Shown here piece by piece: positions 15,921 through 52,350 of a DNA stretch of 64,000 nt (position 1 is the stretch's first letter; each line of letters begins with the position of its first letter). Source of the DNA: a virus. Its lineage: Duplodnaviria > Caudoviricetes. Location of the stretch: the IMG/VR virus record IMGVR_UViG_3300036762_000065, positions 160,001-224,000 of that record, one strand, 5' to 3'. The notes beneath the pieces were generated by a model. That model searched no databases. It worked only from the letters and a program-made list of their open reading frames with translations, and was not told where the DNA came from. The translations under genes and the position numbers were made by a program.

Positions 15921-17434
15921 TATACATACACCTCCTGAATTAGGATAGAATTGGACTTACTGATTGCTCCACCCCATCCGCCTTGTGTTGTACGCGCACA
16001 TATCCAATAATCATTATTAGGACCTGAGAACGATCCGCATCTAATGGAATAGGTATGTGACGCTGTGTCTCCTGGAGCGTCCAAAATATCTGCTACCAAT
16101 GACGCATTCTTTATTGGATCGGAGCTCTCTCTTGAACTATATATAGAGCCGCCTATTAGTAAACTATCTCTAAACACTGCGTAACCAAAGCCGGATTGCT
16201 TTTTCTCGTAAGAAGCCATGTGTAAGGTAATTTGCAATCTCAGCTTACTATCGGCTTTTTCTAGTGCAATATTTTTAGAGTAGACTTCTGTACCGTTTGA
16301 TATTGTAGGAGGTGTATCATCAGGTAAATAAGAAGTTCCCCAACGTTCTGCAATATTCTCAATACTAAAATTAGATGTACTAAGGCCCTCTTTACCACCA
16401 CTAGACTCTTTGTTTTTCCAAACACCAGACTCTAGTGTAAGTACATCGCCTTCTTGGGAGTTTGTCAGTGTTACATCAGACAAACCGTTTAACGTAGTTA
16501 TACCGCTACTTGGTCCAGTAGGTCCTATGTCACCTTTCGGTCCTTGAGGACCTGTTGGGCCTGTAATAGATGTACCGTCGTTGCCTTGTGGACCTGTAGG
16601 CCCGATAGCTCCAGTAGGTCCGGGTAATCCCACAGGCCCTATAATACCTTTAGTAACAAACCACGCACTGACTTGTGCTCCTGAAGCACCACCTCCGCTA
16701 CTGACAGTACGGAAATTTAATAAGCTCCCTGCACTAACAACAAGCTTGTTTATATCGTCTTGCGGAAAAGTCTGAATACCGTTACCGGAAGAAGCAACAA
16801 CAGACTTAGAAACAGGAGAAGTGTTTATAAGTAACTCTACTTCGGGGTTTCCGAAGTTAGTGCTTAAGGTCATTGCGTATAAGACACAATCTATAGGAAC
16901 GTATATACCTTGTGCGGCAGGAGCCTTGTCAGATGCACCAAACGACCACTGCATTGCGTTAGCGGAAAGAGCACCTGAACACTCAGCAACAACATTAAAG
17001 AAGCCTCCGCCTCCGGCATCTGCGAAAGTGATGTTTCCTACACCATCGGTTATCATAACCTGTCCACTTTGTCCATCACTAGGAGGCAAAGTAAGTCCTT
17101 GTATCTTGACAGTACCTGTTTCTTTGTTTGTTTCTAATATGGTAGTGCCTTCTGCATTCTTCGCTATAACATTATTCGTAACGACACTAGAAGCTCTTAA
17201 AAATCTACCGCTTAAAAAATCTACTGCATCTGTGCTACTTAAATCAGCCGTACCATCATTTAAAACAATTGAACCTGAATTTAGAGCAGTTATTAAGTCT
17301 GCGCTGCGAGCCAGTAACGATAGAGGTAGATGGTCAAACGATTCCGTTGTATTAGCAGGAATAGAATCTCCAAAAGAAAATTCGAGTTTGGTTTCTGTTA
17401 TATTTTTTAGATTAATAGACATTACGCTCTCCAC
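15920..17434 (-). CDS. Tail fibre-like protein with collagen-like repeats
   Basis: GPTGPQG repeats; LPPSDG..GQV..TDG.G and LNGLSDV fibre motifs. Confidence 0.8.
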   Translation of the reverse strand: MESVMSINLKNITETKLEFSFGDSIPANTTESFDHLPLSLLARSADLITALNSGSIVLNDGTADLSSTDAVDFLSGRFLRASSVVTNNVIAKNAEGTTILETNKETGTVKIQGLTLPPSDGQSGQVMITDGVGNITFADAGGGGFFNVVAECSGALSANAMQWSFGASDKAPAAQGIYVPIDCVLYAMTLSTNFGNPEVELLINTSPVSKSVVASSGNGIQTFPQDDINKLVVSAGSLLNFRTVSSGGGASGAQVSAWFVTKGIIGPVGLPGPTGAIGPTGPQGNDGTSITGPTGPQGPKGDIGPTGPSSGITTLNGLSDVTLTNSQEGDVLTLESGVWKNKESSGGKEGLSTSNFSIENIAERWGTSYLPDDTPPTISNGTEVYSKNIALEKADSKLRLQITLHMASYEKKQSGFGYAVFRDSLLIGGSIYSSRESSDPIKNASLVADILDAPGDTASHTYSIRCGSFSGPNNDYWICARTTQGGWGGAISKSNSILIQEVYV

Positions 17435-37666: not shown

Positions 37667-37958
37667 CTAGCACTTTGTCACTCACTAAGGAAGCATCTGT
37701 GTGGGATGTAATAGTATTACCGACACTCAGAAACTTTAGACGTATGTTAGGTTTTAATAGCTCGTTATCAACTACAGATACTATATTAATGCCTAATGCT
37801 TTAACGCCATCTACCTTAATTGCAATTAAATAGCTGTCCAGTAGTGTCTTTCGTGCAACTATCTCAGGCTCAGTTCCATAAGAAACTATCTTACTGCCTT
37901 TTATAACCATACCTTTGTTTAATTCACGAACAAAATCTACATATGTTAAATTGTGCAT
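37554..37958 (-). CDS. Hypothetical protein
   Basis: AAGGA RBS; preceded by TGTAAAT. Confidence 0.6.
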   Translation of the reverse strand: MHNLTYVDFVRELNKGMVIKGSKIVSYGTEPEIVARKTLLDSYLIAIKVDGVKALGINIVSVVDNELLKPNIRLKFLSVGNTITSHTDASLVSDKVLDAYKEIRRNLFNWNRDTNSGYTFSDVLANYEYEVSHG

Positions 37959-38009
37959 AATAAATCCTTTAGTGCCGTATTAATACATGGTATTTACACT
38001 ATTTTTGAC

Positions 38010-38045
38010 AAAAAAAAGGCCTGCTGTGAAAATCACAAACAGGCC
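38010..38045 (-). terminator. Rho-independent terminator
   Basis: GGCCTG...CAGGCC stem with an 8-T tail on the minus strand. Confidence 0.7.
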
Positions 38046-38074
38046 AAACGATGACAAAAAACAATAACGAAGAT

Positions 38075-38235
38075 GTGTCGAGTTAACCAATCCTAGTATA
38101 CGAAACGACTCAAACACTATTACCGGGCCCACAAGAGGAATCTATTCCAACCCGATATCGGACATAACGAGCTACCACACTATAGCACCTGAATCAGCAT
38201 TAGCGGTAATGCAGACTCAGCGGTTAACTCGACAC
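38075..38235 (-). ncRNA. Candidate ~160-nt multibranch RNA
   Basis: Perfect 14-bp terminal inverted repeat GTGTCGAGTTAACC enclosing four hairpins; GTAATTT motif just upstream and a terminator downstream. Confidence 0.6.
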
Positions 38236-38250
38236 TACTAGAAATTACTA

Positions 38251-40128
38251 TTATTTTTTACTTGTACTTGTTGTTCTCGATAAAGGTGTCGATTTATTTT
38301 TACTAATGTTCTTTAAAGCCTTCTCTATGTTTCTATTAGCACGTTCATTGGCGCTCTTTTGATTATAAACCCACTTCTTCTTGCCTGTTTTAGTAGAATC
38401 GGTTATTTCGGATTTATCGCCGTAATCCCGTTGGCTTAAACTAGGACGCCGGCCTCCGTTCGTTGCAAGAACATCGCTGTGTGTGTTATTAGATAGTCCA
38501 ACCAGCCGATCAATAGAGTCTGAGGCAAACCCTCCCATACCACTAGCATCCTCTTCGACCTTAGGGCCGTACTTCTTGTTTATCTCTGCCATACGCTTTC
38601 TATACTCAGAAACACGTTTTAGCAGTTCTTCGTCATCTTCGCCGTCTGCGAGCAGGGAGTCTAAATTGAAGCCTCCTGCTGCCGCCATAGCCCTTAGAGG
38701 CACAGGTACACCCTTCTCTGTGAGTTGCTGTAGCATATCCATGTACTGCATATCACCTTCAGGCTTAAGTTGCTTGGCCCAGTGTACGTTAGGTATTAGT
38801 AACTTAGAGCCGTCTTGCATGATGTTTAGATAGTCTTCAGTATTACCTGAATCCATCAAATTGTTTTTACGAATTAATTTGCCGGATTTGTTTACAGTAA
38901 ACCCGTTTACTAGACTTATAAGAGGGAATAGTTTATTGTAAAACAATTTACGTGTAAGCATATCTCGATATGCACGTATATAATCAATGAATACAGTCAG
39001 CCCGGTATCGGCAGTGGCATAATTAGCCTCCCCGCTAAGGAACGCCTCACTTATTCCCATAGCTCTTAGTTTAAACTGGGCAGTGCTGTCCCATATGTCA
39101 GTTACTTTCCAGAAATCACCGCCTTGGCGTAGTTCTTCTGCACTGACACCAATGCGTGTAGCAATAATTGCTCCTAGAGGGTCTGCATCCGCATTATTGA
39201 ACAGGTCTGTCATGAAATCCATGTCAGCAATAGTAGGTTCCCACTGATCGCCGTCACCTAACGTTAGGTGCAATATTCCGCGTTGTCGTCTACTGCTCTC
39301 GACTAATGTTCCTCTAAACAAGTTCTTTTCTATTAAGTAGATAGGAAGTATACGTCTAAACCAAGAAGTGCCTTCACCTGTACTAAAACTTCTACGAGGG
39401 AGAAATATAGTACTAACAGGATCAAGCTCCAATGCAGGCTCAGAAAGTGATTTAAGCAAATCAGGGCCTAAGCGTTCCCTAAGTTGTCGTATACGTACAC
39501 TGTCTGTAGCATCTGCTAGTAGTGCTCTTGTGGATTCCGGAAAAGCTACTGTAATAATAGGATCTTGGGAATATAGAGGAAGAGATTCTACTTTAGCATT
39601 ATCGCCTTGATGTGGCATAATGTCGATGAATTTCTTAGAAGTAGCATTAAACAAAAGACTACCTATAAAATTACCTGTAACAAGGAAATCTGTACTTATA
39701 TCAGGCAATATAGTCCTTATGTTTAAACGTTCTATAGTTTCAACAAATGCACTTAGTGCCTTCTTATCCGAAACACCACCGAGAGTAAAATCACTGAACG
39801 GAAGTGTTGACATCAGATCGACAGCACTACCTGCGACAGGATCGTTGTAGTAGATATCCCTGTACAAACGATATACGAGTTTCTTTTGCTCAAGGTCTTC
39901 CGAAAAGACTATATCTTTTAATAACGGGTCTATATCCACTTCTATAGGCATTGCAGACACACTGGTATTCTGCATACCTGCAGGAGATGCTGATTCCGAA
40001 GTCCAATCGTTACTTGTGCGATTGCTTTTATTGCGTAAGTTTACCGTATTAGTACCGAGCTTCTTACTTGAACTTCGGCTCTCGATACCTTGATCAACAA
40101 AAGTCTTTCGCGCTTTAAACTTCATCAT
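38251..40128 (-). CDS. Portal protein (putative)
   Basis: 625 aa; YRDIYYNDPVAGSAVDLMS, AMGISEAFLSGEANYATA, portal-like helical layout; near the terminase. Confidence 0.75.
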   Translation of the reverse strand: MMKFKARKTFVDQGIESRSSSKKLGTNTVNLRNKSNRTSNDWTSESASPAGMQNTSVSAMPIEVDIDPLLKDIVFSEDLEQKKLVYRLYRDIYYNDPVAGSAVDLMSTLPFSDFTLGGVSDKKALSAFVETIERLNIRTILPDISTDFLVTGNFIGSLLFNATSKKFIDIMPHQGDNAKVESLPLYSQDPIITVAFPESTRALLADATDSVRIRQLRERLGPDLLKSLSEPALELDPVSTIFLPRRSFSTGEGTSWFRRILPIYLIEKNLFRGTLVESSRRQRGILHLTLGDGDQWEPTIADMDFMTDLFNNADADPLGAIIATRIGVSAEELRQGGDFWKVTDIWDSTAQFKLRAMGISEAFLSGEANYATADTGLTVFIDYIRAYRDMLTRKLFYNKLFPLISLVNGFTVNKSGKLIRKNNLMDSGNTEDYLNIMQDGSKLLIPNVHWAKQLKPEGDMQYMDMLQQLTEKGVPVPLRAMAAAGGFNLDSLLADGEDDEELLKRVSEYRKRMAEINKKYGPKVEEDASGMGGFASDSIDRLVGLSNNTHSDVLATNGGRRPSLSQRDYGDKSEITDSTKTGKKKWVYNQKSANERANRNIEKALKNISKNKSTPLSRTTSTSKK

Positions 40129-40277
40129 AGCGTGTGTGCTCTTTAATTATAGGAGTAAAAATAGTATGGTACTGTATAAGGTCCGACGCGAGTAAGGTGC
40201 AGAATGTAACACCTTACTCTTGCCGCCTCCAAAGTCAACAAACATTACACTACGCCAGAATGGTTAGTAGCGAGATA

Positions 40278-40293
40278 GTTGGATCACCTCCTT
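40278..40293 (-). promoter_or_regulatory. Extended Shine-Dalgarno-like element complementary to the 16S rRNA 3' end, with no adjacent start codon
   Basis: Plus strand reads GTTGGATCACCTCCTT; flanked by hairpins. Confidence 0.6.
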
Positions 40294-40332
40294 CTACGAG
40301 TCTACAAAGTAGACTCTGTTGTTGAAAATTCT

Positions 40333-40731
40333 TTAGTAATATTTGTATAATCTTTCCAAGCTTAATGTGTTACCTTTTATAACAACACTATATCCAATAC
40401 GTTCATTAGAAAAAACATCTTTATGGCAATCCCAGTCCGATTTATGTAGAGCAAATCGTACTTGTCTTGTTTGTGCTACAGTAAGGCACAAGGATGTTGT
40501 TACAGTACCGAATTTGTTTGATACATTCCACTCTTTTATGTCTACTTTATTTAATCCACCTGCTGTTAAATAAAGTAGACATCCCATTAAAGCATCCAAT
40601 GTCTCGCACTTACTGAGTAGCTCAATAACTGAAATAGGTACATAACCGTATTTGTCTTCTTGTTTAAGTTTACTATATAAATGTGCAGGTATTGCTTGAA
40701 TTCTAACAGCTTGTTGGAATTTAACTTCCAT
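40333..40731 (-). CDS. Hypothetical protein
   Basis: Co-directional ORF. Confidence 0.6.
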   Translation of the reverse strand: MEVKFQQAVRIQAIPAHLYSKLKQEDKYGYVPISVIELLSKCETLDALMGCLLYLTAGGLNKVDIKEWNVSNKFGTVTTSLCLTVAQTRQVRFALHKSDWDCHKDVFSNERIGYSVVIKGNTLSLERLYKYY

Positions 40732-40745
40732 TTATGTTACTTCCA

Positions 40746-41207
40746 TTAATCAAATATTAAAGTTTTAATCTTCTTCTTTCTTTCTTTGGCAAGTTTTATC
40801 GTATGGGCAGTACCTTTTGAATGTCCGTCATACGCTGCAAACACATAATCACATATATTAATCATTTCAACATTGCGCCTATACCCAGCAGACTTGCCAA
40901 ATAAATCCCACTGTGCAGGCATAGCTAAAACATTGAATTGATTTTTACGTGCCCATATAGCAGCCATGTCGTCAGGACCTACAGCTTGCCCGTGAATAAT
41001 AAGTATATTGTTCTTTGTGAACAAACTGTTATGCTTTTTATGTGTTTCTATAACACGACTTGTAAGTTTTGACATCCAATAACAAAAAATGTCCACATGT
41101 TCTTTGTTTGTGTAGTTACAAAACGGATCACTGTTAAAAACGTTTTTGTCGTAGTTTCCTACTGTCCTACTTCCACAAACAAGAAAGCCTACATAATCAA
41201 GTTGCAT
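40746..41207 (-). CDS. SLOG/DUF2493 (YspA-like) protein
   Basis: VCGSR, IIHG.A.GPD.MA..WA, A.W..FGKSAGYRRN.EM and DG.SKGT.HTI motifs. Confidence 0.88.
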   Translation of the reverse strand: MQLDYVGFLVCGSRTVGNYDKNVFNSDPFCNYTNKEHVDIFCYWMSKLTSRVIETHKKHNSLFTKNNILIIHGQAVGPDDMAAIWARKNQFNVLAMPAQWDLFGKSAGYRRNVEMINICDYVFAAYDGHSKGTAHTIKLAKERKKKIKTLIFD

Positions 41208-41244
41208 AAAAAACTCCTTGTGTATGTAGGCTATTTACACTTTA

Positions 41245-41793
41245 TTAAGCATGTTCAAATCGTTCGCTTTCCTTCTGACCTTTTATAAATCGGTTGAAGA
41301 AGGCGCCTTGAGATTTAGATCGTTCTAGTTTCTTAACTTCCAGTGCGCTAACGTCTTTATACGTCCACTCAGCACCATTCGGAAACTGCACAAGCAACTC
41401 ACTCTTTTTACTGTTGTACCAAACGTTCTGTAACATAGAGCTATCAACGCGGACTTCAGTGAGTTCATCCTGAACAAGTCGCTTACGGTCTTTACCTGCG
41501 TCTTGTCCTGCAACTACGTTAACACGCCCAATCTTACCGCTGTATGATTTGGAGTTTGTTAGTATGCGCTTTGCATCAAAAGGTTTTAGCTTGAACTGTA
41601 CATATAGATAAGAACCGTCTATTAAGAAGTAAGAGCCTGACGCCCGCTTAATACCGAACTTGTCTCCTTTCTTTAGCTCCATGTCATATTCAGGACCGAC
41701 ATCAAACGTAGCAGTACGTCCGTCATAGACATACCACTTATATTTCTGAGGGTCCAGTTTAGTTTTTGAGGTTGCCGAACACGATGTAAACAT
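41245..41793 (-). CDS. KTSC-domain protein with an N-terminal phage domain
   Basis: VDSSML..V.Y.....L.VQF.NG..W.Y.DV...S.G.FFN.FIK. Confidence 0.85.
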   Translation of the reverse strand: MFTSCSATSKTKLDPQKYKWYVYDGRTATFDVGPEYDMELKKGDKFGIKRASGSYFLIDGSYLYVQFKLKPFDAKRILTNSKSYSGKIGRVNVVAGQDAGKDRKRLVQDELTEVRVDSSMLQNVWYNSKKSELLVQFPNGAEWTYKDVSALEVKKLERSKSQGAFFNRFIKGQKESERFEHA

Positions 41794-41833: not shown

Positions 41834-44800
41834 TTAGCTTCGAGTTCTGATCTTTCCGATAGCACCTCCGTAAGAAACAGAACCTGCTCCGCCAGTTCCT
41901 ACATTGCCTCCGCCCCCGCTGCCTAGTCGTGAAAATCCGATTGCGTTAGGTCTAAACTTTTCAACATCGCCCGGGTCTAATACAAAGTACTCGGCAAGCT
42001 TATCGTCTTGAAGGCCCCAACAAGTTAAGGCAAATGCACGCCAAGTATCGTCCGTAAGTCCTTCGGCTTTTAATACTTTAGTGCCTGTATCTTGTACTGT
42101 AAGAAGTTGCACTACAAGATGATCCATTTCTTTATCTTGGAAACATGTAGGATAAGCCTTTTCCTCGAAGTCTATAACATCACGCACACTCATTCCCTTT
42201 CTTGATAGTCTTGGGAAACTAACAGACTGTTGTTCAAGTAATGTCTTTGGCAGCCATAAATCCTTATACTTCAAACTATACTGTTGTGTGTATATGCCTA
42301 ATTCTTCCTCTGCGTCCGACAGAATCTTTAAGCTGTTCCACCTATCAGCAAGAAATACTTTAACGTTCCTACTTTTTACTATAGGAATTATAACATGATC
42401 ATATATTTTTGTGTAGTTTAAAGGGAAGCCCGGACGCGGCATTATCTCTACTAATAGATCAACAGTTATAAGTCCGTTATCCGCATTTAAAGAACTAACA
42501 CAACAAGCAAACGAGTTGTTGGTATGCCCTGCATCAATAGCCAAACAAGAAGGGCGTTTTGATTTTTTAATTTTATCAATGACGCCCCACCGACAGGCTG
42601 ATTTCCTACCGCTTTCTTTGCGTATCTTATAGCTTAATTTTACAGGATTGGAGTGTTGCCCTATGCAATCTTGTATGCTCTGCTTATCTGTAATAAACGG
42701 AGATGCTGCTAGAGGAGGTACCGCCCCGTAGTCCCGTTCTGCACCTTCAGGATCGGTTCTGTAACGTTCTTGTATAACTTTCGAATTTCTCGGTAGGGTA
42801 GGGTTTATTTCCCACGTAGGTCTGTGTACACCGTATACTGACTTAGATGTTTGGGCCGAATTAACTAAGCTCATAATCTTATCGCGACGGTGTGCCGGAC
42901 TACTTACGTTCATGCTCATACCGTTAAGTACGTCATCATATCCTGCTTTGACAAGTCGTTCCGCAGCACCTCTTACAGTCAACAAGCTACTATCGAGCGC
43001 ATCATAAACACCGGCTGCGCTCATTTTTATTTTCTTGCTGTCTGCATCGTTATCGAAGTAGCCGATTTCATCAATGCCTCCAAATACGCGAGTTCTTCCT
43101 CGAAGAATACGTTTATCAGGACCTGCCGGATACCACATTAGATTTCTACAACGATACGCTACAAAGGTGTCATTAAACTTAAATAACTTTTGTCCGTACT
43201 TCTCTTCATAGTAGTTTAGCATTTTGTGGTATTCACGAAACCAAGGGCTTTCAATGAGAGTTCCGTAATAAAATTCCCACAAAGTTTCTTTAGCTTGCGC
43301 GTAAGTTAAAGCACAAAAGGTCCCGTGAAGGACCGTAGAAGAGGATACGTTATACACCTGAGCAGGCTTCTGCATTTTAAGAAGCCTGTGTGTCATGTAA
43401 GGTGTTAGCATTCCGCCAACCGTCTGCGACTTACCGCTGTTGTGTGATATAATACCTCCTGTGACGAATTGGTGTGTTTTAGGGAGCGTAAAATCGTAAG
43501 TCTCAAATTGTTTAGTTGATACTTGGTTTTTGGTCACTCGACAAAACACCACGTCATCCGAACAATATGTCAACAACTGTTCAAATTCAAACTTGACTTC
43601 TGGAGACATATACTCTACTTTTTGTAAAGCTACGGTACAGATTTCCAGTAACTTGCGTTTTGTTAAACGAACGGCTTTGCTCTTCCTTAGTTTTCTTAGG
43701 GAAAACGACAATTTTTCACTATTGCGTCCAAACACAGTACTTATTCCCATTGTGATCTTGGGTATACGTGTGCGAAACTTTTCGCTGGTAGCACGTTCGT
43801 AGTAAGGTAAAGGAAAAACATGTAGTTCTGCATTCCAACGATCAAGAAGTGATCGTAGTCTGGATTCAAGAAATTCCAAATTCTCATACCAGTACGGTAC
43901 TAAGTTTGTGCGGGAATCCAGTACCTCAATAGCGTGATCTAGTTGGTTCTTTTTGCGTGACGACAAAAATCCAACCTGGTCTCGAAAACGCTTTAAATAC
44001 ATACCACGAATCGAAATAAACCAGCTAGGTTTAGAAATCTGCTTATCGGTCCCGTTAGTTGCCCATGTCCACTTTCTACGAATCCTGTGCGCTATGCCTA
44101 AATTGTGCAACATAGCACTAAGCTGGTATGCCAGTTTTTGACTTATCGTGCAATAACTAACAGAATGACGTAGGTCTTTCTTTACATTCCTACTTACCCA
44201 ACCATCACCTTCGTAAAGACCTTGTAAAAAGGCACAAACGTTTTCTTTTGTAGAAGTACGGACAGACAACGGGATTTCTTTTAACGCAGAACCAGATGAT
44301 AACCCTTCGCTTGATAACCCTAGTAGTTCTGCGAAAAACAGGCGGCCCTTGTGCCCACGTATTGAGGTGTAGGTGTTGCCATTTTCATCACAAGATACCC
44401 TAATGTGATGCTTGTTTATATATTTCATTAACGTTTTTAGGTAGAACGCATTGACTTCTGGACATTTGTTACAAACACCTGCACTTCGACCTTCTGCAAC
44501 CCAAAGTCCTAACACCTTATACATATCAGAGCATATATCACCTGAATAGGCTTTGAATAACGTAGGGTATTTTTTTGCAGTGTAGTCCATAGATTTTTGA
44601 TTAACTCGCAGCATAATATCTTCGAAATATAGATGCCGGTTACCAAACACCTGTTGATTTAGTCGAACCGGCACAATATCTGAAGGCGACACGTCCACTA
44701 GGCGCTTAAAAACTCCATCTAGTAGCTGTATAGGGTGATCCGAAGTACCTCTTATCCTTATACCATTATACAACGTAACAGATCGAATAAATTCGGGCTT

Positions 44801-45556
44801 TGCTCGATAAAAATCTGTGGTCTGTTCAAACTCTGTCCCGTTATGTACGTTTAAATGGAATCGTGAAAAGCCGAAACGCTTGTTTTTTGTATACTCACCT
44901 ATACTCATAAGACCGTGTTCAGTCAATATACAAGTATCACCTGTGACACAACGCTGCCCTGCACACACCGCTAATTCTTGGTAAAAGTAAAGCTGTTCAT
45001 TTGTTATGAATGTAGATCGTCTTCCGCCGCAAGCAGGACAAACCCCATTTTCAAACAAACAAACGTTACGCTCAAACGTCAAGAACGTATCATCAACTTT
45101 GTGGTCATAATACAACCACTCAACATTCGAACAAGCAGGACAGTAATCAGCAAATATTATTATGCCCCATATAAGTTGCTCCATAAACGGTGTAACTACT
45201 GTACCTGCAAACTCATCCCGAGTTACCCACTCATAAAAGTTTTTAGCTAGAGGCATAGCAGAATCATCTACCTTTGTATCTCTTGGCTTAAAAGAACCTT
45301 TTGAATCCTCGATCATCTGTCTGACCATAGAAGCAACGTTTGCTTCGTTCACTATCTCTATGGCAACAGCTTCATCTTTACCTTTATCTAAAAAAGAAGT
45401 ATCAAACCCTTCACCTCTAACATGTTTAAGTTTAGTCAAAAACTTAAACGGGTCCCCAGTATCTTTGACTGTACTAATCAACAGATCGTAGTCGTCATAG
45501 ATGGAAATTTCCTTTTTCTTTGGCTTATTCTTTTTATCTTCCAAAGCTAACATCAT
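41834..45556 (-). CDS. terL: Terminase large subunit, intein-interrupted
   Basis: Walker A AGQR|SGKS split by an intein; LRGR, IDEIG Walker B, NVSSP, AIDAG nuclease motif, ADRWNS, TDD. Confidence 0.93.
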   Translation of the reverse strand: MMLALEDKKNKPKKKEISIYDDYDLLISTVKDTGDPFKFLTKLKHVRGEGFDTSFLDKGKDEAVAIEIVNEANVASMVRQMIEDSKGSFKPRDTKVDDSAMPLAKNFYEWVTRDEFAGTVVTPFMEQLIWGIIIFADYCPACSNVEWLYYDHKVDDTFLTFERNVCLFENGVCPACGGRRSTFITNEQLYFYQELAVCAGQRCVTGDTCILTEHGLMSIGEYTKNKRFGFSRFHLNVHNGTEFEQTTDFYRAKPEFIRSVTLYNGIRIRGTSDHPIQLLDGVFKRLVDVSPSDIVPVRLNQQVFGNRHLYFEDIMLRVNQKSMDYTAKKYPTLFKAYSGDICSDMYKVLGLWVAEGRSAGVCNKCPEVNAFYLKTLMKYINKHHIRVSCDENGNTYTSIRGHKGRLFFAELLGLSSEGLSSGSALKEIPLSVRTSTKENVCAFLQGLYEGDGWVSRNVKKDLRHSVSYCTISQKLAYQLSAMLHNLGIAHRIRRKWTWATNGTDKQISKPSWFISIRGMYLKRFRDQVGFLSSRKKNQLDHAIEVLDSRTNLVPYWYENLEFLESRLRSLLDRWNAELHVFPLPYYERATSEKFRTRIPKITMGISTVFGRNSEKLSFSLRKLRKSKAVRLTKRKLLEICTVALQKVEYMSPEVKFEFEQLLTYCSDDVVFCRVTKNQVSTKQFETYDFTLPKTHQFVTGGIISHNSGKSQTVGGMLTPYMTHRLLKMQKPAQVYNVSSSTVLHGTFCALTYAQAKETLWEFYYGTLIESPWFREYHKMLNYYEEKYGQKLFKFNDTFVAYRCRNLMWYPAGPDKRILRGRTRVFGGIDEIGYFDNDADSKKIKMSAAGVYDALDSSLLTVRGAAERLVKAGYDDVLNGMSMNVSSPAHRRDKIMSLVNSAQTSKSVYGVHRPTWEINPTLPRNSKVIQERYRTDPEGAERDYGAVPPLAASPFITDKQSIQDCIGQHSNPVKLSYKIRKESGRKSACRWGVIDKIKKSKRPSCLAIDAGHTNNSFACCVSSLNADNGLITVDLLVEIMPRPGFPLNYTKIYDHVIIPIVKSRNVKVFLADRWNSLKILSDAEEELGIYTQQYSLKYKDLWLPKTLLEQQSVSFPRLSRKGMSVRDVIDFEEKAYPTCFQDKEMDHLVVQLLTVQDTGTKVLKAEGLTDDTWRAFALTCWGLQDDKLAEYFVLDPGDVEKFRPNAIGFSRLGSGGGGNVGTGGAGSVSYGGAIGKIRTRS
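43439..44950 (-). mobile_element. Intein with LAGLIDADG homing endonuclease (504 aa) in TerL
   Basis: Starts CVTGDT, ends ISHN before Ser; TSDHP, LGLWVAEG, FLQGLYEGDG and TYDF motifs. Confidence 0.93.
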
Positions 45557-52272: not shown

Positions 52273-52350
52273 TGGTGCCCCTCGGCGGACTTGAACCGAC
52301 GACCTACCGATTATGGGTCAGGTGCTCTAACAAACTGAGCTAAAGGGGGC
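52273..52350 (-). tRNA. Degenerate tRNA, CAT anticodon (Ile2/Met-like)
   Basis: GCCCCCTTTAGCTCAGTTTGTTAGAGCACCTGACCCATAATCGGTAGGTCGTCGGTTCAAGTCCGCCGAGGGGCACCA: cloverleaf, TTCAA T-loop and encoded CCA, with several non-canonical positions. Confidence 0.8.

What the first reader, a model, noticed from the sequence alone, without database searches (positions are those of the whole stretch)
40185..40320. Orphan 16-nt perfect complement of the 16S rRNA 3' end embedded in hairpins upstream of the portal gene
Seen: plus strand 40278-40293 reads GTTGGATCACCTCCTT, matching the E. coli-type 16S 3' terminus. The transcribed minus strand therefore carries AAGGAGGTGATCCAAC. No ATG/GTG/TTG follows at normal spacing, and the portal start is about 150 nt away. 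It is flanked by hairpins GAGTCTAC/GTAGACTC (40298-40316) and GAGTAAGGTG/CACCTTACTC (40190-40219). Inference: a 30S-capturing element (standby site, stabiliser or ribosome sponge), or an anti-SD mimic if the plus strand is transcribed. This is a second ribosome-directed RNA signal in the same genome.
Basis: partly seen in the sequence, partly recalled or inferred. Interest (0 to 1): 0.7.

Follow-up and report, generated by a model that had tools for sequence, protein, structure and literature searches.

The report
Phage-wide RNA with orphan ribosome grip
The perfect match to the tail of 16S ribosomal RNA is the front arm of a small folded RNA that many unrelated phages carry once per genome, often with no gene behind it; no RNA catalogue lists it, and it most likely grips the host's small ribosomal subunit without starting translation.

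Summary
In detail: a unique 16-nt match (8e-5 expected), no usable start codon, both hairpins present. It is one copy of a widespread phage RNA motif: purine block, GGUGAUCC, 2-4 nt, AUCU, then an H-type pseudoknot whose loop 3 begins UNA. I found about 100 distinct copies, in PaBG/Alexandra-type jumbo phages, PAK_P3/PAK_P4, Staphylococcus phage 37 and low-GC siphophage-like contigs. Nearly all genomes hold one copy. There is no Rfam family and no paper in the library searched. The portal link is incidental: in PaBG the motif ends an operon, and in PAK_P3/P4 it sits in tRNA arrays. Only the 8-nt core, complementary to 16S 1529-1536, is conserved; the upstream purine block matches the rest of the tail. 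Best reading: a late RNA on the SD-sense strand that binds 30S without initiating. Binding, expression and purpose are untested. The window copy (242-kb PaBG-like phage) is syntenic in three close relatives, keeps stem 1 and has only a weak stem 2. The scan found this motif before on other DNA (e1-4037108); I saw that note only after reaching the same result.

The parts
40298..40316 (-). 5' hairpin (8 bp, 3-nt loop), 4 nt before the SD arm
   Evidence: a GAG..CUC hairpin sits at the same place in L522, L524, L526
40281..40293 (-). SD arm: 13-nt complement of 16S 1529-1541; conserved core GGUGAUCC at 40288-40281
40277..40280 (-). variable 2-4 nt spacer (its AAC extends the 16S match to 16 nt by chance)
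   Evidence: spacer lengths and letters vary
40273..40276 (-). conserved AUCU; its AUC lies 10 nt after GGAGG; can pair back to upstream bases (weak P0 stem)
40248..40272 (-). pseudoknot stem 1, CGCUAC (40272-40267) with GUAGUG (40253-40248), followed by the family loop start UNA
   Evidence: shuffle p 0.007; same register in L524 and L522
40236..40266 (-). putative stem 2, UAAC (40266-40263) with GUUG (40239-40236); weak in this copy
   Evidence: inferred from L524 (UGAC/GUUA) and L522 (UCCG/CGGA); alternative register scores only p about 0.07
40226..40230 (-). second SD-like GGAGG before the 3' hairpin
   Evidence: GGAG(G) at the same place in L522, L524, L526
40190..40219 (-). 3' hairpin (10 bp); terminator-like with U-tract in L522 and L526, no U-tract here
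40333..40731 (-). upstream 132-aa orphan ORF (context); stop 42 nt before GGAGG
38251..40128 (-). portal gene (context), 58% identical to the PaBG portal

Best explanation
This is one copy of a widespread, uncatalogued phage RNA motif (SD arm, AUCU, H-type pseudoknot), read on the minus strand as part of a late transcript. Shown by computation: the motif, its covarying stems, one copy per genome, no start codon, and independence from any neighbouring gene. Inferred: the arm pairs with the 16S 3' tail in two blocks (GGUGAUCC with 1529-1536, the upstream purine run with the anti-SD end). A weak self-hairpin holds GGUGA in a loop until the tail invades. The non-initiating AUC and the pseudoknot 4 nt later then sit where a start codon and first codons would go, so the 30S is held but does not initiate. 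Also inferred: with a hairpin or the bound 30S at its 5' end and a terminator or tRNA-processing cut at its 3' end, the unit persists as a short stable RNA that occupies or shields small subunits late in infection. In this phage it may in addition protect the portal message behind it.
For: One model built from seven jumbo-phage copies finds the window copy as the sole hit in the genome, E 1.4e-5. Seven of eight related IMG/VR jumbo records have exactly one GGAGGUGAUCC, reverse control 0; the seven distinct copies scored all have a pseudoknot after AUCU. In IMG/VR hits not selected for structure, 29 of 112 have a strong pseudoknot vs 2 controls; in bacterial genomes 7 of 118. Nine of 19 pairs show two-sided changes, and slid controls fall from 83% paired to 24-45%. 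Stem 1 takes 22 and stem 2 75 sequence forms among 93 copies. With the upstream part unselected, GGUG is 92-96% conserved, a purine RRGG block lies 1-4 nt before it in 41 of 44, and that block pairs with the tail end in 95% vs 24% of controls. The commonest core variants (A to G, C to U) keep wobble pairs with 16S. One copy in 37 of 39 genomes. No ATG/GTG/TTG in 98 of 102. PAK_P3: 40 nt after an annotated promoter and before tRNA-Tyr; PAK_P4: 10 nt before tRNA-Cys; PaBG: before a terminator and a convergent gene.
Against: The 16S tail is self-complementary, so GG..CC can also be explained as an intramolecular hairpin; native P0 is slightly more stable than swapped pairs (-4.5 vs -4.2 kcal/mol, 1 of 200). 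U-to-C core variants that break a 16S pair exist (4 of 93). AUCU never covaries, so its conservation is unexplained by 16S pairing. The window copy's stem 2 is only 4 bp, and close relative L526 has lost AUCU and the pseudoknot. RNA-seq annotation of PAK_P3 and PAK_P4 marks neighbouring sRNAs but not this motif as a discrete RNA (PMC4933390).
Confidence: 0.5

Rival explanations
1. A cis-acting STAB-SD-like stabiliser or standby site: a parked 30S plus the pseudoknot protect whatever RNA lies downstream (here the portal message; elsewhere scaffold, protease, terminase or endolysin messages, or pre-tRNA).
For: Strong SDs without a start codon stabilise downstream RNA in Bacilli (PMC3997798). Downstream genes in low-GC phage contigs are high-demand late genes. 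In three of the four nearest lineage copies the portal follows directly.
Against: PaBG and L191 copies are followed by a terminator and a convergent gene. A terminator often follows within 150 nt (27 of 100). The position varies from terminase to after the lysis genes while copy number stays one. The same review says protection at a distance is much weaker in E. coli, yet many hosts here are Gammaproteobacteria.
Confidence: 0.2
2. A compact self-folding RNA (P0 hairpin with GGUGA loop stacked on the pseudoknot) that binds a protein, ligand or other RNA; the SD likeness is a by-product or a relic of insertion at SD sites.
For: CC pairs back in about 70 of 93 predicted folds and GGUG is unpaired in about 56. 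In PAK_P4, AUCU closes an 8-bp stem around the SD. A variable insertion between GG and GGUG is natural in a loop. AUCU and UNA are sequence-conserved.
Against: P0 averages -4.5 kcal/mol vs -24 for the 16S duplex. The A-rich run before GG has no conserved intramolecular partner but matches the 16S tail end. No two-sided change of GG/CC was seen (CC was partly fixed by my patterns).
Confidence: 0.17
3. A catch for ribosomes leaving the upstream gene, either insulating downstream genes or, tmRNA-like, handing the ribosome to a short frame behind the pseudoknot.
For: A stop codon lies within 12 nt of GGUG in 65 of 98 copies. The pseudoknot resembles tmRNA PK1 in size (own knowledge). In 8 of 9 jumbo copies a downstream hairpin loop carries a UAG, after GCA in 5.
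Against: There is no upstream CDS in PAK_P3/P4. In the window the stop is 42 nt away behind a hairpin. Post-pseudoknot frames end in Ala in only 10% vs 5% of controls and in Ala-Ala in 2 vs 2. None of the window's three frames ends in Ala. No Rfam tmRNA or ARAGORN tmRNA hit.
Confidence: 0.08
4. An ordinary but non-AUG start (AUC, or an AUG in loop 3) for a short peptide.
For: AUC lies at start-codon distance from GGAGG (7-10 nt). The window and L524 have an AUG in loop 3 in frame with GGA GGC GGC.
Against: AUC-frame lengths scatter from 1 to 200 codons. Loop-3 AUG occurs in only 14 of 105, fewer than AAG. The window and L524 peptides are 32 vs 7 aa.
Confidence: 0.03
5. The plus strand is the functional RNA: an anti-SD or GAUCA decoy for SD-led mRNAs or for Era/RbfA.
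For: The plus strand reads GAUCACCUCC, the element Era's KH domain binds (PMC10582724), followed by a terminator-like hairpin.
Against: Copies are co-oriented with tRNA arrays, a promoter and terminators on the SD-sense strand. Stems use G-U pairs on that strand (16 of 222 in stem 2). The plus strand folds less well.
Confidence: 0.02

Closest known systems
STAB-SD of Bacillus thuringiensis cry3A and related start-less SD 5' stabilisers (PMC3997798)
   Same: Strong SD with no start codon, presumed to hold a 30S.
   Different: STAB-SD lies at the 5' end of an mRNA it protects. This motif has a conserved GAUCC extension, AUCU and a pseudoknot, and occurs at operon ends and in tRNA arrays.
tmRNA PK1 and mRNA-like domain (Rfam RF00023)
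   Same: Compact H-type pseudoknot of similar size with an A-rich loop 3 (own knowledge); jumbo copies have a stop codon in a downstream hairpin loop.
   Different: No tRNA-like domain, no conserved tag frame, no Rfam or ARAGORN hit.
Stable RNAs of unknown function in phage tRNA clusters (T4 rnaC/rnaD, T5 RNA I/III, PAK_P3 sRNA1/2)
   Same: Genomic setting and a likely late, processed, stable form.
   Different: The motif is absent by pattern from T4 and T5, and lies outside the annotated PAK_P3 and PAK_P4 sRNAs.
S15-rpsO and T4 gene 32 leader pseudoknots (own knowledge)
   Same: A pseudoknot beside an SD that can trap or block a 30S.
   Different: Those regulate a real start codon of one fixed gene; here there is no start codon and no fixed gene.
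Era/RbfA recognition site of 16S, GAUCA plus anti-SD (PMC10582724)
   Same: The conserved core is the exact complement of this site.
   Different: It is an RNA that would mask the site rather than a protein; no such RNA is described in the papers read.

Membership tests
STAB-SD 5' stabiliser | Strong SD with no start codon | tested here: met
   (window); 98 of 102 copies
STAB-SD 5' stabiliser | Lies in the 5' leader of an mRNA that it can protect | tested here: not met
   True for the window, not for the family: operon ends, tRNA arrays
STAB-SD 5' stabiliser | 30S binding extends downstream RNA half-life | not testable with these tools
   needs toeprint and decay assays
tmRNA | tRNA-like domain with CCA end | tested here: not met
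   no Rfam or ARAGORN tmRNA hit
tmRNA | Tag frame ending in Ala-Ala behind PK1 | tested here: not met
   a partial hint in the jumbo clade only
Any Rfam 15 family | Covariance-model match | tested here: not met
   window and about 30 loci with the motif
16S rRNA fragment or primer artefact | Match continues into helix 45 | tested here: not met
   the match stops at 16 nt, no SSU hit, identical in five other assemblies
SD-arm/AUCU/pseudoknot phage motif (this work; e1-4037108) | Purine block plus GGUGAUCC, 2-4 nt spacer, AUCU-C | tested here: met
SD-arm/AUCU/pseudoknot phage motif (this work; e1-4037108) | Stem 1 directly after AUCU, followed by UNA | tested here: met
   6 bp, shuffle p 0.007
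SD-arm/AUCU/pseudoknot phage motif (this work; e1-4037108) | Stem 2 completing the pseudoknot | tested here: inconclusive
   4 bp by homology; alternative register p about 0.07
SD-arm/AUCU/pseudoknot phage motif (this work; e1-4037108) | One copy per genome | tested here: met

The most novel reading that the evidence does not exclude
Phages of both Gram-positive and Gram-negative hosts make a small trans-acting RNA that base-pairs with the 16S tail, including the GAUCA site used by Era and RbfA, and parks a pseudoknot at the mRNA channel. It would be an RNA-only 30S storage, protection or sequestration factor.
Probability: 0.25. Interest if true: 0.92.

Novelty: categorically new. Interest (0 to 1): 0.72.

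Why it matters
A conserved structured RNA kept once per genome by unrelated phages, including therapy-relevant Pseudomonas phages (PAK_P1/P3/P4, PaBG) and Erwinia and Staphylococcus phages, is missing from Rfam and from the papers searched. Its absence by pattern from T4, T5, SPP1 and A118 may explain why. If it binds 30S it is a new way for phages to handle host ribosomes with RNA alone, and it is testable at once in PAK_P4 or PAK_P3 on laboratory strains. The novelty label refers to the RNA motif; its function may yet prove to be a STAB-SD variant. It may be among the unnamed candidates of bulk surveys (PMC10690425), which I did not check.

Tried and rejected
Chance: rejected. Primer or 16S contamination: rejected. 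Rfam: no family at gathering or E-value thresholds. Literature: ten searches found no description; the 224-motif paper's main text does not describe it and its supplement is not held. BLAST of the whole gap against phages gave only short hits. Portal-specific leader: distant relatives have the KTSC gene abutting the portal and the motif elsewhere. Non-AUG or loop-AUG peptide and tmRNA tag: not conserved. The bacterial-genome scan was mostly chance hits. No credible copy was found in HRDY3, NCTB, RSL1, PhiXhv-12, GR7B, Lauda or RHph_I42, and only a doubtful one in Lu11; the first-look filter and the short model limit sensitivity. The ARAGORN tRNA-Ile(GAU) at 16958-17052, which could have read AUC, looks like a false call.

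Full report
Setting. The window is part of a complete 241.7-kb phage whose portal is 58% identical to that of Pseudomonas phage PaBG, with further relatives among Lu11, Alexandra, Y3 and RSL1-like phages. The finding lies in a 205-nt gap on the minus strand between a 132-aa orphan ORF (stop at 40333) and the portal start (40128). A clade-typical late-promoter-like motif, TGTAAATA, stands at 41239 on the minus strand, before the SLOG gene, and none lies in the gap. So the gap is probably read within a late transcript (inference).

Observation. The 16-mer is exact and unique; the next best match in the genome is 10 nt, and the expected count is 8e-5. No ATG, GTG or TTG follows at usable distance. 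Both hairpins exist. The gap is identical in five other assemblies. The last three matched bases would pair inside 16S helix 45 (own knowledge) and are not conserved, so the usable complement is at most 13 nt.

What it belongs to. An IMG/VR scan for the 16-mer gave 61 loci. About a third continue with AUCU and a compact stem, not a start codon. A wider pattern and a pseudoknot finder showed a strong H-type pseudoknot directly after AUCU in 29 of 112 viral hits against 2 position controls, but in only 7 of 118 bacterial-genome hits, which are mostly chance. Seven of eight related IMG/VR jumbo records, PaBG included, hold exactly one GGAGGUGAUCC at non-syntenic sites, all continuing with AUCU. 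Alexandra, Yoloswag and fHe-Yen9-02 hold one too. On their alignment 9 of 19 pairs change on both sides, and slid controls drop from 83% paired to 24-45%, despite a one-column misalignment of stem 1 in three rows. A model built without the window copy finds it as the only hit in the genome, E 1.4e-5. Among 93 copies stem 1 takes 22 forms and stem 2 75, stem 1 starts with C, and loop 3 starts UNA in 89 (the first C and U were required by my filter). The motif also occurs in about 160 Pseudomonas phage records of the PAK_P1 and PAK_P3 types and in Staphylococcus phage 37. It was not found by pattern in T4, T5, SPP1 or A118. No Rfam family matches.

What is conserved. With the upstream part left unselected, GGUG is 92-96% conserved, but the full GGAGGUG survives in only 4 of 49. 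Instead a purine block (typically AAAGG) stands 1-4 nt before GGUG in 41 of 44, and it pairs with the far end of the 16S tail in 95% of copies against 24% of random control stretches (the control is not limited to intergenic DNA). With the middle unselected, UGAUCC or UGGUCC dominates. This is the pattern expected of a two-block duplex with the 16S tail, whose fixed block covers GAUCA, the site read by Era's KH domain (PMC10582724). It is also partly explained by a self-hairpin in which GG pairs with CC around a GGUGA loop: native P0 averages -4.5 kcal/mol vs -4.2 swapped, far weaker than the -24 duplex. In PAK_P4 and PAK_P3, AUCU closes a longer stem around the SD. Both folds may be used in turn.

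Context. There is one copy in 37 of 39 genomes, no start codon in 98 of 102, a stop within 12 nt in 65 of 98, and a terminator-like hairpin downstream in 27 vs 9 on the other strand. Neighbours vary: scaffold, prohead protease, terminase, tail, holin, endolysin. In PaBG the motif is followed by a terminator and a convergent gene. In PAK_P4 it lies 10 nt before tRNA-Cys, and in PAK_P3 40 nt after an annotated promoter and before tRNA-Tyr, with no CDS. The element therefore needs neither an upstream nor a downstream gene, and the SD-sense strand is the transcribed one. The RNA-seq studies of these phages annotate neighbouring sRNAs but not this motif (PMC4933390, PMC5563952).

The window copy. 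The three closest relatives (portal 81, 73 and 71% identical) carry it just upstream of the portal, in L524 with a GGDEF gene inserted between. They share the layout: GAG..CUC hairpin, SD arm, stem 1, second GGAG(G), 3' hairpin. Four relatives at 66-68% lack it there. By homology with L524, stem 1 is 40272-40267 with 40253-40248, followed by UAA (p 0.007). Stem 2 is only 4 bp. An alternative register gives p about 0.07. L526 has lost AUCU and the pseudoknot but kept the SD arm. The window copy lacks the two extra hairpins of the PaBG-Alexandra form. It is a genuine, somewhat degenerate member.

Mechanism. Shown: motif, covariation, single copy, no start, gene independence. Inferred: tail pairing (about 0.6), a non-initiating 30S complex, and release as a short stable late RNA (overall about 0.5). 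The cis-stabiliser reading fits start-less SDs in Bacilli (PMC3997798) and may hold locally, but not at operon ends. The tmRNA-like reading has a hint in the jumbo clade (stop in a hairpin loop in 8 of 9, after Ala in 5), but no support across the family or in the window.

Earlier notes. After this analysis I found that the scan had reported the same motif from a Pseudomonas phage tRNA cluster (e1-4037108), and similar orphan SDs elsewhere. These are not independent evidence.

Verdict. The feature is real, conserved and uncatalogued; its function is untested. Interest 0.72.

Noticed in passing
   Followed up: partly
L193, L194, L196, L197, L209, L210, L333 (3' of the pseudoknot): PaBG/Alexandra-type copies carry two further covarying hairpins, the last with a C-AUAGC-G loop that reads (G)CA UAG, Ala-stop, in several genomes.
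   Followed up: partly
window 41239, 37998, 55910, 62657 (-); 758, 8311 (+): TGTAAATA motif 20-55 nt before many start codons genome-wide; likely the clade's middle/late promoter.
   Followed up: partly
window 40333-41245; L511:1396-2464, L512, L524:2190-3209, L533:3007-3962: The KTSC-to-portal interval is an insertion hot spot: strains of this phage differ by 1.1-1.3 kb here, and relatives carry GGDEF, SLOG or endonuclease/phosphatase genes.
   Followed up: no
window 41834-45556 (-); P0004, P0019: The large terminase-position gene carries a LAGLIDADG intein; some relatives have inteins in the portal protein.
   Followed up: no
window 52276-52349 (-) and 16958-17052 (-): A tRNA with CAU anticodon found by Rfam but missed by ARAGORN; ARAGORN's tRNA-Ile call at 16958 looks spurious.
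   Followed up: partly
window 40322-40351 (+): Near-consensus sigma-70 promoter (11 of 12) pointing antisense into the 132-aa ORF.
   Followed up: no
L524:5110-5470, L526:2180-2470, window 37958-38251: A long structured-looking gap directly after the portal gene in the nearest relatives and the window; not analysed.
   Followed up: no
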